Shown here piece after piece: positions 16,087 through 20,000 of a DNA stretch of 20,000 nt (within the stretch, counting starts at the first letter, position 1; every line of letters begins with the position of its first letter). Below the pieces are notes generated by a model. That model had not been told where the DNA came from. It did no database searches and saw only the letters and a program-made list of their open reading frames with translations. A program made the position numbers and the translations under genes. The stretch is from IMG/VR virus record IMGVR_UViG_3300042261_000615. One strand, written 5' to 3'. The stretch comes from an uncultured virus (IMG/VR IMGVR_UViG_3300042261_000615). Taxonomy: Duplodnaviria > Heunggongvirae > Uroviricota > Caudoviricetes.

Positions 16087-17145
16087 CTATGTCGTTTCAT
16101 ATGAGTTATAATCAAACGTACTACCTTCTTGTTTGTAGATTGATATAGGTATCGTTTGGATATGGGCATCCGTTTTCAAAATCAAGTTACCACTATATCT
16201 TCTATCGGATGACAAGAACCCACCCAATGTTTGCGTTGGTATTAATTTATCAACTTCAAATTTATTAACATCTAATACAGATACCGTTTTAAGTGTATTG
16301 GCTGGGATAGTTATTCGATTATTTGGTTGCGAAACTGAAAACACTTTTTGTATAGCCGCACTTCCAGTCAATGCCATACGGACAACAATATCAGTAGTAG
16401 TATTATTTGCTATAGAAATTTTTGGTCCGTTCCACCAAGCATATTCGTTATCACGATCTTTCGAATTGAATGGCCATGGCCAGTTTTCTTTACACCGAGA
16501 CCAATATATGAAACCCGGCGATGAACCATCTGTGGGTGAAACCAACTGGGCATAAAATTGGTCTAACGCACTCGTATCGGGATATGGTGGTAATGGGGTT
16601 GAATCATAGTATTCAACCATTCCGGGCGTATCCCATGGTATAACTCCACCACTCTCAATAAGTTCAGATGATACATCAGATACAACCCAATCTATGTACT
16701 TAATATACAATTCACTATCTATAGTAGTGCCATTTGATCCTGATATAAAAAATACATTTTTAGAAATAGTTGCAGAATTATCCAATTCGGTTTGTTTCAA
16801 TGATTGGTTGATTTTGTATAATGGGGATGTATCCAATTTCACAATAGCATATGGTTTCAGAGATTCGTTTACGAAATACGGATTACTTTCAACCAATGAT
16901 GATGACATATCATTGAAATAAACTTGGGATGTATAATAGTTGGAAACCCCACGTTCGGTTAGTTGTATTACAAATCTAAATGATGTATTTGGTATTACTA
17001 TTATGGAGTTTAATGATACTTTATCAAATGTTATGGCATTATTATCATAAATTCCCGATAATCGTATACTTCCAGTTATATCGGTTGTATAACTAGACAC
17101 CGATGGATATTGGTTATCTAATTGGGTTAACTTTACATATTCCAT
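16087..17145 (-). CDS. Hypothetical protein (~352 aa), possibly structural
   Basis: Likely start is MEYVKLTQ at 17145; the upstream extension in the track is low-complexity AT-rich intergenic sequence. S/T/N-rich, beta-rich composition. Confidence 0.65.
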   Translation of the reverse strand: MEYVKLTQLDNQYPSVSSYTTDITGSIRLSGIYDNNAITFDKVSLNSIIVIPNTSFRFVIQLTERGVSNYYTSQVYFNDMSSSLVESNPYFVNESLKPYAIVKLDTSPLYKINQSLKQTELDNSATISKNVFFISGSNGTTIDSELYIKYIDWVVSDVSSELIESGGVIPWDTPGMVEYYDSTPLPPYPDTSALDQFYAQLVSPTDGSSPGFIYWSRCKENWPWPFNSKDRDNEYAWWNGPKISIANNTTTDIVVRMALTGSAAIQKVFSVSQPNNRITIPANTLKTVSVLDVNKFEVDKLIPTQTLGGFLSSDRRYSGNLILKTDAHIQTIPISIYKQEGSTFDYNSYETT

Positions 17146-17271
17146 ATTTATAAATATTATTACACTTTTTTTTCGTTGTAAAATCCATACATTAAACGAA
17201 TTATATTTTTTATTAAAAATTTTTATATTTTTTTTATCGTTTTGAAAAAAATCACGTATATTTATAAAAGA

Positions 17272-17328
17272 CAGCACTAAAGCAATAAAGCAAATATAAA
17301 AAAGACATAGACAATCAGCACTAAAGCA
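17272..17328. repeat. 13-bp direct repeat CAGCACTAAAGCA x2 with an extra TAAAGCA copy
   Basis: Copies at 17272-17284 and 17316-17328; partial copy at 17286-17292; adjacent to a ~120-nt very AT-rich stretch. Confidence 0.6.
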
Positions 17329-17348
17329 CGGACATACTATAAGTTTTT

Positions 17349-18722
17349 TTATTTGAGTCTAAGTATTTCATCTTTTATATGCTGATTTGTCCTATTCCAT
17401 TGAATGTTAGTCAGTAACCAATCTCTATACCAATATGGTATCTTTTTAATTTCACAATCTTTATATTTTCCAAAATTCATAACAACTGGAATTGCTGGGG
17501 CTGGTTTTTTAACTTCCACACAGTCTTCACCTTCTATATGGTGTCCTATTGTATCCAGCGGTATACCGGTCAATAATTTTTTACCCTCACCATACAGCTT
17601 CCACATATAATCTTCTTTTTTGAAATATAGTTCTTCAACTTTTCCAAACTTAGGTACGCTACCCACAAAATCAACCACAAGCCCATTCTGTTTGTCAGTG
17701 TGGATTCGAGTTACTCTACCAACAAACTGATACCACCAACTTAACGAAGCTGTAGGACGACCGGTTATGATACAATCCAATTCTGGATAATCGAATCCCA
17801 CTGTAAGAATATTTACTTGGACTATAATCCTCAGTATGCCAGATTTGAATTCCGATACAATCCTATCACGCTCTTTGGATGTCAACTCCGAATGTAATAC
17901 AGCCGCTTGAGGTAATCTTGCCGCAAGGAATGTTGCTTCACTTATTGATGGTACAGCAACCAATATCGCTTTTCTATCAGTTAAATCACCAATTTTTTTA
18001 ATAATCTTATCGGAAATATTATGCTCCGTATATGCTTTTCGTATCGAATCATCCGTATAATCAGCCCCAGTGGAATTATATATAAGTTTACCACTATCAA
18101 AATCATACGATTCATATTGTAGTTTAGACCAATACGATAAATCCACCATCTCTTTAATTTGGGTAACATGAATTATCTCTTTGAAAAAGTTACCTTTTTT
18201 GGATTTGGATGTAAGCATTACCAATTTTGAAAACGGTCTACCATCTTCACTTATATTGGTTTGTAACTTTAATGGAGTTGCTGTCAATCCCAAAACATGG
18301 GTGATGCCCGCAGCGGATAAAAACCGTCTTAGCATACCGCCTGGTTCTCTTGGAAATCTATCGCATTCATCTATAATAACACGATGAATTCCCAATTTTC
18401 TAAACTGACCAGCTATATTTACAATAGAACCAATAGTTGCATACGTTATGTTACCAATTTCCTTTTCATTCATCGATGCTGAATATATGGAAGCCTCTCC
18501 ACCAAGATTTATGAACTTGTTATAGTTCTGTTCCAACAATTCTTTGGATGGCTGTATGACAAGCAATCTATCACCTACGTTCTTTGCTATTTGTGCAATA
18601 ATGATAGATTTACCAGCGGCGGTGGGTAGTACCATAATAGATGGGTCTGCCTTTTTCTTATTGAAAAAATCAGTTCCAACTTTTACAGGCTCTATCTGAT
18701 ATTGTCTTAATACAATTGACAT
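17349..18722 (-). CDS. Superfamily 2 DNA helicase (RadD/UvsW-like) with short C-terminal FGKY domain
   Basis: LRQYQ, LPTAAGKS, IIDECD, GLTATP, LTVGFDYPELD, QFVGRVTR; C-terminal MNFGKYKD..I..IP..Y..WL. Probable start is MSIVLRQYQ at 18722. Confidence 0.88.
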   Translation of the reverse strand: MSIVLRQYQIEPVKVGTDFFNKKKADPSIMVLPTAAGKSIIIAQIAKNVGDRLLVIQPSKELLEQNYNKFINLGGEASIYSASMNEKEIGNITYATIGSIVNIAGQFRKLGIHRVIIDECDRFPREPGGMLRRFLSAAGITHVLGLTATPLKLQTNISEDGRPFSKLVMLTSKSKKGNFFKEIIHVTQIKEMVDLSYWSKLQYESYDFDSGKLIYNSTGADYTDDSIRKAYTEHNISDKIIKKIGDLTDRKAILVAVPSISEATFLAARLPQAAVLHSELTSKERDRIVSEFKSGILRIIVQVNILTVGFDYPELDCIITGRPTASLSWWYQFVGRVTRIHTDKQNGLVVDFVGSVPKFGKVEELYFKKEDYMWKLYGEGKKLLTGIPLDTIGHHIEGEDCVEVKKPAPAIPVVMNFGKYKDCEIKKIPYWYRDWLLTNIQWNRTNQHIKDEILRLK

Positions 18723-18784
18723 TGAAAATAATTTATAAGTTATATATATAAATATATAAAATTTATCTTTTTCCAAAAAACTAT

Positions 18785-18793
18785 ATATTTATA
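18785..18793 (+). promoter_or_regulatory. Recurrent ATATTTATA motif (candidate phage-sigma promoter) for the plus-strand gene
   Basis: The same 9-mer lies on the coding strand upstream of several minus-strand genes; here it is divergent from the copy at 18747-18755. Confidence 0.45.
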
Positions 18794-18906
18794 ATCGATA
18801 ACCTTGTGTGTAAATCTTTAGTGCTCTGTAATAGGAACATTAGAATTGGGGTAAAATCCAATGAATAAAGCTTTATATAACAATTAAAAAAATAAGGAGA
18901 AATATT

Positions 18907-19680
18907 ATGAACAACCCAACGGCGTATATCACGCAAAACAGACAACGTGTCCGTCAATACGGACGAAGAGGGGATACCACTTTGGATACCACTTTTCTTA
19001 AAGATGGTGATGAATTTGAAATAGAATTATTCAATCCCACCCAAACCAAAACACTTGCTAAAATCAGTATCAATGGTCGGAGAATATCCCAATCTGGTAT
19101 AGTTATAAATCCAGGTCAACGTATATTTTTGGAACGTTATATTGATGACAACCACAAATTCGTATTCAATACATATGAGGTGGATAACGGAAATGCTGAT
19201 GTTGATCGAGCTATTGCAAAAAATGGAAATATACAAATTGATTTTTTCAATGAAGTTGTACCATCAGTGGTATACACCACAGATAACACCCCCATAAGGT
19301 ATTATACGTGGAATCCTACCTACATTAGATACTATAGTTCTACGAATACATCCAACACGTTTGTACCAAGTACATTCACAACCAGTACGAATATGTTATG
19401 CTGTGCGGAGTCTACATCGACATATGCGACAGCTGACACCTTATCCATACCTAAGAAAGAAACTGGAATTGTATCTAAAGGTGGTCGTTCAGACCAATCG
19501 TTTACTACAGTAAATGATACATTTAGTTCGTCGTGTTTTTTGACTATAAATTGGAAAATACTTCCACTGTCACAAAAACCATATGATGTCACTGATGACA
19601 AAGTATACTGTACTTCGTGTGGTGCAAAGAGGAAAAAACAATCACATAAGTTCTGTCCACATTGCGGAACTAAATTCTAA
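18907..19680 (+). CDS. Hypothetical protein with N-terminal beta-sandwich-like domain, S/T-rich linker and C-terminal zinc ribbon
   Basis: Only credible plus-strand gene in the window. CTSC...CPHC at the C-terminus; AAGGAG upstream; followed by a terminator. Confidence 0.85.
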   Translation: MNNPTAYITQNRQRVRQYGRRGDTTLDTTFLKDGDEFEIELFNPTQTKTLAKISINGRRISQSGIVINPGQRIFLERYIDDNHKFVFNTYEVDNGNADVDRAIAKNGNIQIDFFNEVVPSVVYTTDNTPIRYYTWNPTYIRYYSSTNTSNTFVPSTFTTSTNMLCCAESTSTYATADTLSIPKKETGIVSKGGRSDQSFTTVNDTFSSSCFLTINWKILPLSQKPYDVTDDKVYCTSCGAKRKKQSHKFCPHCGTKF

Positions 19681-19704
19681 ATAAATTATTACAGCAAGGT
19701 TATC

Positions 19705-19740
19705 AAAAAAAATAAGGGAAGTAAGTTACTTCCCTTTTTT
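19705..19740. terminator. Bidirectional intrinsic terminator between convergent genes
   Basis: Inverted repeat aagggaagtaa-g-ttacttccctt (19714-19736), with a T-run to 19740 and an A-run at 19705-19712. Confidence 0.85.
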
Positions 19741-19745
19741 CATAT

Positions 19746-20000
19746 TCAATCTGTCCATTCGTTCACCCTATTCAAACAATCCGTAAGCATAACCAATCGA
19801 TGTTTTGCATCCTCTATGAGTTTTTCATTGTCTTTTATCTTTTTATTGATTAGTTCAATCGCACCACGTTTTCGCCCCCACTTTTTTGGAAATACGAATA
19901 GATTACCAACAGGTAGATATTCCGATTTTACTATGGCTTCATAAATTTGTGGTTGTATTACAACATGTAACTTATCATTAATTTCTTCAATTGTTGCAGT
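19746..20000 (-). CDS. Hypothetical protein, C-terminal part (start beyond right edge)
   Basis: Open frame ...TATIEEINDKLHVVIQPQIYEAIVKSEYLPVGNLFVFPKKWGRKRGAIELINKKIKDNEKLIEDAKHRLVMLTDCLNRVNEWTD* ending at the terminator. Confidence 0.7.
   Translation of the reverse strand, partial: TATIEEINDKLHVVIQPQIYEAIVKSEYLPVGNLFVFPKKWGRKRGAIELINKKIKDNEKLIEDAKHRLVMLTDCLNRVNEWTD

What the first reader, a model, noticed from the sequence alone, without database searches (positions are those of the whole stretch)
18785..19740. Lone plus-strand gene whose transcript ends base-pair: 16-bp 5'-3' closing stem around the whole ORF
Seen: GATAACCTTGT-G-TGTAA (18797-18813) is complementary to TTACA-GCAAGGTTATC (19689-19704). 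This gives 10 consecutive Watson-Crick pairs, one G-U, a one-base bulge and 5 more pairs, about 880 nt apart. The 5' arm starts 3 nt after the ATATTTATA motif (near a plausible TSS). The 3' arm lies between the stop codon and the terminator. The gene is an autonomous unit (own promoter motif, own terminator) oriented opposite to everything else. Inference: the G-U pair and bulge favour RNA-level pairing over a DNA recombination site. Possible roles are an RNase III-type processing stem, mRNA stabilisation/circularisation, translational locking as in type I toxin mRNAs, or a protein-RNA system in which the zinc-ribbon protein acts on its own RNA. I do not recognise this as a described system.
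Basis: partly seen in the sequence, partly recalled or inferred. Interest (0 to 1): 0.75.

Follow-up and report, generated by a model that had tools for sequence, protein, structure and literature searches.

The report
Phage mRNA that pairs its ends
A single-gene message of a giant freshwater phage most likely starts with bases that pair with a stretch just before its terminator, next to a conserved Y-shaped leader RNA; related phages keep both through matching mutations, so this looks like a real, uncatalogued way of closing a bacterial-type mRNA into a loop.

Summary
18797-18813 pairs with 19689-19704, and these are the two UTRs of the 257-aa zinc-ribbon gene.

In the window alone the match is only mildly unusual. 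Comparison with relatives settles it. Of 72 relatives with distinct flanks, 63 have a perfect 8-15 bp stem at the same two places. The 5' arm starts about -96 from the ATG and the 3' arm about +12 after the stop. There are 28 different arm sequences, including five unrelated arm families.

The stem's outer end tracks the predicted transcription start. The 3' arm sits 0-9 nt before an intrinsic terminator in 57 of 63 loci. Mismatches inside the helix are G.U rather than A.C, which indicates RNA of the + strand.

The helix abuts a strongly covarying three-way-junction leader that has no Rfam match and occurs once per genome.

DNA readings (transposon ends, invertible switch), hok-like locking of the ribosome site and control of the terminator are not supported.

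My best reading is that the helix shields the mRNA 5' end from decay, possibly also serving as a protein platform. The structure is near certain; the function is inferred. No RNA data exist.

This scan has met the same feature on other genomes. I found no paper describing it.

The parts
18762..18767 (+). -35-like hexamer TTTATC (3 of 6 matches to TTGACA), 16-nt spacer
   Evidence: Relatives mostly carry TTTACA here. The generic promoter scan did not list this promoter.
18784..18792 (+). -10-like TATATT within the conserved TATAyTTAT motif; it puts the predicted transcription start at about 18796-18797
   Evidence: Caveat: an overlapping perfect TATAAT at 18790-18795 would put the start near 18802.
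18797..18813 (+). P1 5' strand: the first bases of the predicted mRNA. Core is GATAACCTTG at 18797-18806.
18812..18874 (+). Three-way-junction leader. P2 is 18812-18820 with 18866-18874. P3 is 18821-18825 with 18836-18840. P4 is 18845-18849 with 18858-18862. The conserved junction lies at 18841-18844.
   Evidence: Model R1 scores the window at 66.5 bits, E 6.9e-10.
18875..18906 (+). A-rich linker with Shine-Dalgarno TAAGGAG at 18893-18899
   Evidence: predicted accessible
18907..19680 (+). ORF of 257 aa: a beta-sandwich domain, a disordered S/T/N-rich linker (residues 136-176) and a C-terminal CxxC...CxxC zinc ribbon. Function unknown.
19689..19704 (+). P1 3' strand, 8 nt after the stop codon
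19714..19741 (+). Intrinsic terminator: a 10-bp stem at 19714-19736 followed by a T run. It also reads as a terminator on the - strand.

Best explanation
Shown, with structural confidence about 0.9: the gene is a self-contained transcription unit made of promoter, leader, ORF and terminator. The first 11-17 nt of its RNA form a helix (P1) with the 3' UTR immediately upstream of the terminator hairpin. On its 5' strand P1 runs without a gap into P2, the closing helix of a conserved three-way-junction leader. P1 and P2 can therefore stack into a helix of about 20-24 bp, from which the roughly 850-nt coding loop emerges. The start and stop codons lie about 32 and 8 nt from that junction.

Inferred, with confidence about 0.45: the main job of P1 is to bury the 5' terminus of the message. 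This would block 5'-end-dependent decay (pyrophosphate removal followed by RNase E entry, or RNase J 5' exonuclease, depending on the host), while the terminator hairpin guards the 3' end. The result would be a long-lived, heavily translated mRNA. The junction leader probably adds a protein-binding or nuclease-blocking module.

The overall figure below is for structure plus this function together.
For: - Position and covariation. 63 of 72 distinct-flank loci carry the stem. The 5' arm starts at a median of -96 from the ATG and the 3' arm at a median of +12 after the stop. There are 28 distinct 5' arms. 55 of 63 share a CCTT core whose flanks show compensatory changes, and 8 fall in five unrelated arm families. 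Alignment columns 4-16 are almost entirely Watson-Crick, with 2-4 pair types per column. The Watson-Crick fraction is 0.873 against 0.711 +/- 0.013 when partners are shuffled among loci, and 0 of 1000 shuffles reach the observed value.
- RNA of the + strand. On the inner side of the core, the first non-Watson-Crick position is G.U in 41 of 63 loci and A.C in 9. Where the helix then continues, the counts are 25 G.U against 1 A.C.
- The ends match transcript ends. The first paired base lies 6-7 nt after the -10 hexamer in 37 of 53 CCTT-core loci, and 4-8 nt after it in 49 of 53. The number of paired bases upstream of the core rises with the distance from the -10 hexamer to the core (Spearman 0.70). 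A terminator follows the 3' arm within 0-9 nt in 57 of 63 loci. The helix rarely continues beyond its outer end (6 of 63) but often continues inward (27 of 63).
- Thermodynamics. P1 averages -17.7 kcal/mol. In full-length transcript folds the core pairs have a mean probability of 0.97 in all 28 loci computed (28 of 63 before the time limit); the window scores 1.00.
- Out-of-sample test. In 10 genome-contig loci not used for any model, the leader is found in 8 and P1 in 5, and some of these arms are sequences not seen before.
- Established knowledge, recalled: base-paired 5' ends stabilise bacterial mRNAs (the ompA-type 5' stem-loops).
- Read in a paper: a 14-bp 5'/3'-UTR helix modulates RNase Y cleavage of the hbs mRNA (PMC5737220, abstract).
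Against: - No RNA data of any kind exist. The transcription start and the 3' end are predictions, and the only sequencing runs found are DNA contigs.
- The window's own promoter is weak by consensus (8 of 12 matches) and the generic promoter scan missed it. The overlapping TATAAT at 18790-18795 would start the RNA inside the arm.
- P1 is missing in 9 of 72 loci. Three of those (L002, L009, L079) keep the leader. P1 is also missing in 3 of the 8 leader-bearing out-of-sample loci. It is therefore dispensable in some lineages.
- P1 cannot form until the whole gene has been transcribed.
- The 3' arm starts only 7-15 nt after the stop codon, so a terminating ribosome should reach its inner pairs.
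- The ACCTTGT sequence itself is conserved in 55 of 63 loci, more than pairing alone requires.
- Five loci have bipartite stems of about 20 bp with an internal loop, which looks more like a dsRNA-nuclease site.
- The covariation counts are not corrected for shared ancestry.
Confidence: 0.5

Rival explanations
1. P1, alone or stacked on P2, is a double-strand RNA processing site. RNase III or a phage enzyme would cut it to mature or to inactivate the message, as at rRNA and phage T7 processing stems.
For: The P1 and P2 strands are contiguous and together span about 20-24 bp. L072, L081, L094, L096 and L099 have bipartite stems of about 19-21 bp with an internal loop, at -25 to -29 kcal/mol. L003, L072 and L081 have no terminator after the 3' arm.
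Against: In most loci P1 alone is 11-16 bp, which is short for RNase III (recalled). The helix starts at the predicted transcription start rather than inside a longer precursor, and a processing stem has no need for that.
Confidence: 0.15
2. P1 plus the three-way junction is a protein-binding platform. The zinc-ribbon product, or a host factor, would bind its own message to set its translation or lifetime.
For: The leader has invariant junction bases and strong covariation. It occurs once per genome in four near-complete genomes of 308-324 kb, always in front of this gene. The protein ends in a lysine-rich zinc ribbon with four invariant cysteines.
Against: There is no binding evidence. Relatives whose C-terminal halves differ (L008, L010, L012) keep both leader and P1. 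The fold search shows only a generic beta-sandwich.
Confidence: 0.15
3. Closed-loop translation. P1/P2 holds the stop codon (about 8-15 nt from the junction) next to the ribosome-binding site (about 25-35 nt from it), so that terminating ribosomes re-initiate on the same message.
For: The 3' arm keeps its distance from the true stop codon even where the ORF is extended (L014, L077, L084). The ribosome-binding site is open.
Against: This is purely geometric inference. The same spacing follows from compact UTRs. I know of no precedent in bacteria.
Confidence: 0.07
4. hok-like locking: the closed full-length form is translationally inert until it is processed.
For: It has the same end-to-end architecture as the tac/fbi stem of hok mRNA (PMC9841398, passages read).
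Against: The unpaired probability of the -15..+3 region is 0.69 with the arm free and 0.72 with it sequestered. Only 11 of 63 loci rise by more than 0.1. The product is a protein of 249-354 aa, not a toxic peptide.
Confidence: 0.03
5. A DNA-level inverted repeat: the ends of a mobile cassette, recombination sites of an invertible switch, or paired operator sites.
For: Inverted repeats flank a one-gene cassette. The gene neighbourhood is very variable: 135 flanking proteins fall into 86 clusters and flank orientations are mixed.
Against: The conserved promoter and terminator lie outside the arms. All 63 loci have the ORF in the ON orientation relative to the promoter. The G.U over A.C asymmetry is not expected for DNA. 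The outer end of the helix follows the transcription start. No transposase or invertase domain was found. The leader is single-copy.
Confidence: 0.03

Closest known systems
B. subtilis hbs mRNA 5'/3'-UTR interaction (Braun, Durand and Condon 2017, PMC5737220; abstract and outline read)
   Same: [quoted passage not shown] It acts on ribonuclease access to a structured leader.
   Different: In hbs the helix overlaps an internal RNase Y site in the leader. Here it involves the predicted first nucleotides of the RNA and abuts the terminator, sits next to a three-way junction, and is supported by covariation across several dozen phage lineages. The nuclease involved is unknown.
hok mRNA tac/fbi stem of the hok/Sok type I toxin-antitoxin system (PMC9841398; passages read)
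   Same: The extreme 5' end pairs with the 3' end of the full-length message and stabilises a closed form.
   Different: hok's closed form sequesters the Shine-Dalgarno sequence and needs 3' trimming to open. Here the ribosome site is predicted open in both states, no antisense RNA is evident, and the product is a 257-aa protein.
S. aureus icaR 5'-3' UTR pairing (PMC3868564; search listing and start of abstract only)
   Same: A 3' UTR pairs with the 5' UTR of the same bacterial mRNA.
   Different: As I recall, the icaR 3' UTR pairs with the Shine-Dalgarno region to block translation and recruit RNase III. Here the target is the 5' terminus, about 95 nt upstream of the ribosome site.
5'-terminal stem-loop stabilisers such as the ompA leader (recalled, no call)
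   Same: A base-paired 5' terminus that denies 5'-end-dependent nucleases a single-stranded entry.
   Different: Those are local hairpins. Here the partner strand lies about 850-1150 nt downstream.
Hammerhead ribozyme (Rfam hammerhead families), for the leader
   Same: Three helices around a junction with short conserved single strands (UUGAG ... CGAA).
   Different: The CUGANGA and GAAA core is not present, and no hammerhead model matched even at E up to 5.

Membership tests
Any Rfam 15 family | Score at or above the family's gathering threshold | tested here: not met
   One search scanned 18600-19900 on both strands at E up to 5. There were 8 weak matches. The best scored 26.9 bits against a threshold of 56 and lay on the terminator. 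None fell on 18797-18906.
Hammerhead ribozyme | Three helices around the conserved core CUGANGA ... GAAA with a UH cleavage site | tested here: not met
   Three helices are present. The junction strands are UUGAG and CGAA/CAAA. No hammerhead model hit.
hok/Sok-type tac/fbi closed mRNA | The 5' terminus pairs with the 3' end of the full-length mRNA | tested here: met
hok/Sok-type tac/fbi closed mRNA | The closed form sequesters the ribosome-binding site, and the product is a small toxic peptide | tested here: not met
   RBS unpaired probability is 0.69 against 0.72. The proteins are 249-354 aa.
hbs-type 5'/3'-UTR interaction | A long-range helix of about 14 bp between the two UTRs of one mRNA | tested here: met
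   Perfect core of 8-15 bp, extended to 11-17 bp, mean -17.7 kcal/mol
hbs-type 5'/3'-UTR interaction | The helix modulates endonuclease cleavage and mRNA half-life | not testable with these tools
   No RNA-seq holder was listed and the host is unknown.
RNase III processing stem (rRNA / T7 type) | About two turns of dsRNA embedded in a longer precursor | tested here: inconclusive
   P1 alone is 11-16 bp in most loci. P1+P2 stacked span 20-24 bp. Five loci have bipartite stems of about 20 bp. However, the stem starts at the predicted transcription start.
Terminal inverted repeats of a transposable element | The repeats mark the ends of the conserved unit, which encodes a transposase and is multi-copy | tested here: not met
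   The conserved promoter and terminator lie outside the arms. No transposase domain was found. One leader copy per genome in 4 genomes.
Invertible DNA switch | Both orientations of the segment occur between the repeats, with an invertase nearby | tested here: not met
   63 of 63 loci are in the ON orientation. The neighbours are a helicase and unknowns. Raw reads were not available.
Zinc-ribbon proteins (Pfam Zn_Ribbon_1 / DZR) | Score at the Pfam gathering cut-off, and a CxxC...CxxC motif | tested here: inconclusive
   23.2 bits against a cut-off of 25. Four cysteines are invariant in 38 sequences.

The most novel reading that the evidence does not exclude
The paired ends and the three-way junction together form a dedicated closed-loop module of a phage message. 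It would hold the stop codon and the ribosome site a few tens of nucleotides apart through the P1/P2 junction, so that ribosomes recycle in cis. It would also be read by the gene's own zinc-ribbon product as a feedback switch. That would be a prokaryotic counterpart of the eukaryotic closed-loop mRNA, built from RNA alone.
Probability: 0.15. Interest if true: 0.85.

Novelty: new variant of a known kind. Interest (0 to 1): 0.7.

Why it matters
End-to-end pairing of bacterial-type mRNAs is known from a handful of single cases (hok, hbs, icaR). None of these, to my knowledge, has broad phylogenetic support. Here one gene family of giant phages keeps such a helix through compensatory change across several dozen lineages, and its helix boundaries coincide with the predicted transcript ends.

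The protein family is large: 1060 proteins at E <= 0.001, and 476 confirmed relatives in viral contigs.

This gives a natural and easily mutable model for asking how 5'-3' communication sets mRNA lifetime or translation in bacteria. It adds an uncatalogued structured leader to the phage RNA repertoire. It also offers a compact stabilising cassette (promoter, leader, ORF, arm, terminator) that could be tested for gene expression in ordinary laboratory strains.

Tried and rejected
- Whole genome: none is held for this window. I could not ask whether other genes of this phage have paired ends. The nearest record, G001, is a 19-kb fragment without the gene.
- Near and distant DNA search of the phage collection with 17000-20000: no match.
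- Sequencing runs: no RNA holder was listed. Only two DNA contig sets came up, from what may be the source sample. Laying them showed full cover and no joints. Contigs cannot show rare inversions, RNA ends or expression, so this says nothing either way.
- First locus search with the single protein found only 1 locus. The alignment-based search was needed.
- Fold searches: Foldseek against PDB gave nothing at E <= 0.001. VIA-align gave a best Z of 7.1, on generic Ig/MSP-like sandwiches, which is within the background range. PHROGs gave only weak zinc-ribbon-region hits. The protein atlas gave only unnamed viral clusters. The protein's function stays unknown.
- Locking of the ribosome site by the free 5' arm: rejected.
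- 3' arm acting as an antiterminator that the 5' arm would neutralise: rejected. Pairing in the terminator zone is 0.32 unpaired with the arm free against 0.36 with it sequestered, and only 4 of 63 loci change by more than 0.1.
- Extra pairing for the 5' arm inside the leader: RNAalifold predicts none.
- A search downstream for displaced 3' arms in L002, L009 and L079 found nothing convincing.
- Literature: two searches for a description of this phage element found nothing relevant. Subscription-only journals are not covered.
- timed out and was repeated with fewer, mononucleotide shuffles.
- Rows dropped: L044 and L059 were left out of the flank statistics because their downstream flank was too short; both carry the leader. 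L099's 5' flank was too short for the automatic test and was examined by duplex folding instead. 19 loci with identical flanks were collapsed. L062 and L008 were added to the 61 automatically called loci after reading their flanks. L081 was left out of alignment A2.

Full report
WHAT IS THERE

The window is a piece of a large freshwater phage genome. Its other genes include baseplate wedge proteins, an endolysin-like protein, thymidylate synthase, an endonuclease, PhoH and a DNA helicase. All of these lie on the minus strand. The flagged gene is the one long plus-strand ORF, 18907-19680, of 257 aa.

The complementarity is exactly as described. GATAACCTTGTGTGTAA at 18797-18813 pairs with TTACAGCAAGGTTATC at 19689-19704, at -19.8 kcal/mol. 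An intrinsic terminator follows at 19714-19736.

Within the window alone the match is not compelling.
- 1 of 1000 shuffles of the two short segments reach its energy.
- 33 of 764 same-geometry segment pairs slid along the window also reach it.
- The window holds 122 perfect 10-mer inverted pairs within 1.5 kb.
- With the terminator included in the downstream segment, 246 of 1000 shuffles reach it.

RELATIVES

The protein belongs to a large family with no functional name. It has 1060 members at E <= 0.001 among 1170 candidates. Its members occur in Lak megaphages and other huge phages, and 476 relatives were confirmed in viral contigs, of which the best 80 were kept.

I defined the ORF and its flanks in 91 loci, which reduce to 72 loci with distinct flanks.

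The longest perfect stem between positions -150..-51 and the first 50 nt after the stop is:
- 10 bp or more in 42 of 72 loci, against 28 of 1440 shuffled and 0 of 72 reversed controls;
- 12 bp or more in 27 of 72 loci, against 3 of 1440 and 0 of 72.

63 of 72 loci have the stem at the canonical place: 61 by the automatic rule, plus L062 and L008 by inspection. The 5' arm starts at a median of -96 (range -110 to -62). The 3' arm starts at a median of +12 (range 7-40). The two arms are 848-1156 nt apart.

There are 28 different 5' arms. 55 of 63 share a CCTT core with varying flanks: TGAAACCTTGTT, AGACCTTGTG, ATAACCTTGTGA, AAACCTTGTGATTAA and, in the window, GATAACCTTG. The other 8 fall into five unrelated families: GAGCCTCGCTCT, TCTCACTTTGTT, (TA)GCTGTTCG, ATTAGAGCCTGAC and GGGAGCCAA.

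Column by column, alignment positions 4-16 are almost entirely Watson-Crick, with 2-4 pair types each. Shuffling 3' partners among loci lowers the Watson-Crick fraction from 0.873 to 0.711 +/- 0.013, and 0 of 1000 shuffles reach the observed value. These counts are not corrected for shared ancestry. The unrelated arm families are the part least affected by that caveat.

RNA OR DNA

Four results point to RNA of the plus strand.
1. On the inner side of the perfect core, the first non-Watson-Crick position is G.U in 41 of 63 loci and A.C in 9. Where the helix then continues, the counts are 25 G.U against 1 A.C. A DNA repeat should not show this asymmetry.
2. A sigma-70-like promoter (typically TTTACA, 16-17 nt, TATAyT) lies just upstream of the 5' arm. 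The first paired base lies 6-7 nt after the -10 hexamer in 37 of 53 CCTT-core loci, and 4-8 nt after it in 49 of 53. The number of paired bases upstream of the core (0-6) rises with the distance from the -10 hexamer to the core (Spearman 0.70). The helix therefore begins where the transcript is predicted to begin. It rarely continues beyond that point (6 of 63), although it often continues inward (27 of 63).
3. A terminator hairpin with a T run follows the 3' arm within 0-9 nt in 57 of 63 loci.
4. The conserved promoter and terminator lie outside the arms. The ORF is in the ON orientation in all 63 loci. No transposase or invertase domain is present.

Transposon ends and an invertible switch are therefore poor fits. 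This holds even though the neighbourhood is very variable: 135 flanking proteins fall into 86 clusters, and flank orientations are ++ 24, +- 15, -- 14 and -+ 10.

In full-length transcript folds the P1 core pairs have a mean probability of 0.97 in all 28 loci computed. That is 28 of 63 before the time limit. The window scores 1.00, with all 10 core pairs in the minimum-energy structure.

THE NEIGHBOURING LEADER

In the window its helices are:
- P2: 18812-18820 with 18866-18874;
- P3: 18821-18825 with 18836-18840;
- P4: 18845-18849 with 18858-18862.

On 62 sequences, all 18 pairs show compensatory changes. 92.6% of cells are paired, against 74.3% in shuffles (0 of 500 reach the observed value) and 34-44% when partners are slid by 1-3 columns. 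The junction strands are nearly invariant (UUGAG and CGAA). An A-rich linker, the Shine-Dalgarno sequence and the ATG follow.

No Rfam family matches.

A covariance model of the leader gave these results:
- It finds the leader in L002, L009 and L079, which lack P1.
- It does not find it in the Lak phage loci, L001 or Xanthomonas phage Xoo-sp13.
- It finds it once per genome in four near-complete genomes of 308-324 kb, apart from one weak extra match at E 0.59.

In many loci pairing runs up to the column next to P2. P1 and P2 can therefore stack into a helix of about 20-24 bp, from which the coding loop emerges.

OUT-OF-SAMPLE CHECK

Ten loci from binned genomes were not used for any model. Several of their contigs are large, at 254 and 425 kb. 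I take them to be phage contigs binned with cellular genomes, though I did not test this. Eight carry the leader. Five carry P1, and some of their arms are sequences not seen before: CCTTTTACC and GAGCCTTTTCCCGTT. Three leader-bearing loci (L098, L100, L101) have no convincing P1.

In L072, L081, L094, L096 and L099 the stem is bipartite. It is about 19-21 bp with an internal loop, at -25 to -29 kcal/mol.

MECHANISM

Three specific ideas were tested and not supported.
- Sequestering the 5' arm does not change predicted access to the ribosome site (0.69 against 0.72 unpaired). hok-like locking is therefore unlikely.
- Sequestering the 3' arm does not change folding of the terminator (0.32 against 0.36). 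Control of termination is therefore unlikely.
- RNAalifold finds no conserved alternative partner for the 5' arm inside the leader.

What remains is a helix that begins at the first transcribed base and ends next to the terminator. The simplest function is to hide the 5' end from 5'-end-dependent decay while the terminator guards the 3' end. This is the logic of 5' stem-loop stabilisers (recalled) and is close to the hbs 5'/3'-UTR helix (PMC5737220, abstract read).

I put this function at about 0.45. The alternatives are an RNase III-type site (0.15), a protein platform that may include the product itself (0.15), and ribosome recycling (0.07). The functions are not mutually exclusive.

Everything about function is inference. 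No RNA run holds this sequence.

THE PROTEIN

The AlphaFold model has a mean pLDDT of 81. It shows a beta-sandwich built from residues 1-135 and 180-225, a disordered linker at 136-176 and a C-terminal zinc ribbon. No solved structure matches beyond generic Ig/MSP-like sandwiches. Predicted viral structures do match, down to E 6e-10. They are uncharacterised proteins of giant viruses, nudiviruses, nimaviruses and iridoviruses. I did not follow this up.

KNOWN OR NEW

Two literature searches found no description of this element.

This scan has met the same architecture on other genomes. The relevant notes are e1-5757747, e1-5705146 and e1-6169483, and a related case is e1-6072648. Those are unchecked AI notes and not independent support. 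I reached the same structure from this window before reading them.

End-to-end mRNA pairing as a principle is known from hok, hbs and icaR. I therefore class this as a new variant of a known kind: it is conserved across a whole family, tracks the transcript ends, and is joined to an uncatalogued leader.

Noticed in passing
window 18972-18995: A perfect tandem duplication of 12 nt (GGATACCACTTT twice) lies inside the ORF. It falls in a 7-residue insertion that only the window protein has among the 38 aligned relatives. It looks like a recent in-frame slippage.
   Followed up: partly
window 18727-18793: The AT-rich divergent intergenic region is full of palindromes. One is a perfect 12-nt inverted pair, TATAAATATATA at 18747-18758 with TATATATTTATA at 18782-18793, and it overlaps the -10 region of the + gene. 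It may be a symmetric bidirectional promoter or an operator shared with the helicase gene.
   Followed up: no
window 19714-19741: The terminator also scores as a terminator on the minus strand. It probably serves the convergent ORF that runs from beyond the window's end down to 19746 as well.
   Followed up: no
L004-L007 (Lak phage loci), about 1477-2397: The Lak megaphage homologues carry in-frame TAG codons and are open only if TAG is read as an amino acid. This fits the stop-codon recoding reported for these phages (recalled). They lack both the leader and the closing stem.
   Followed up: partly
5' and 3' arms of 55 of 63 loci; window 18801-18806 and 19695-19700: The conserved arm core ACCTTGT contains an anti-Shine-Dalgarno-like CCUU, and its partner contains a Shine-Dalgarno-like AAGG about 12 nt after the stop. 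The five lineages with unrelated arms mostly lack a canonical Shine-Dalgarno sequence before the ATG. I cannot tell whether this is more than shared ancestry.
   Followed up: partly
L091/L092, 3' flank; L003, 3' flank: In L091/L092 the 3' arm is followed directly by a T run with no separate hairpin. The long-range stem itself might then act as the terminator stem. L003, L072 and L081 show no terminator at all after the arm.
   Followed up: no
protein of window 18907-19680: Predicted-structure relatives, down to E 6e-10, are uncharacterised proteins of giant eukaryotic viruses, nudiviruses, nimaviruses (Wsv390-like), iridoviruses and baculoviruses. Some phage relatives replace the zinc ribbon with a SHOCT domain.
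   Followed up: no
window 18660-18675 and 19236-19251: A second inverted pair is 16 nt long and 94% complementary. One arm lies in the helicase gene and the other inside the ORF. It is A/T-rich and probably arose by chance.
   Followed up: no
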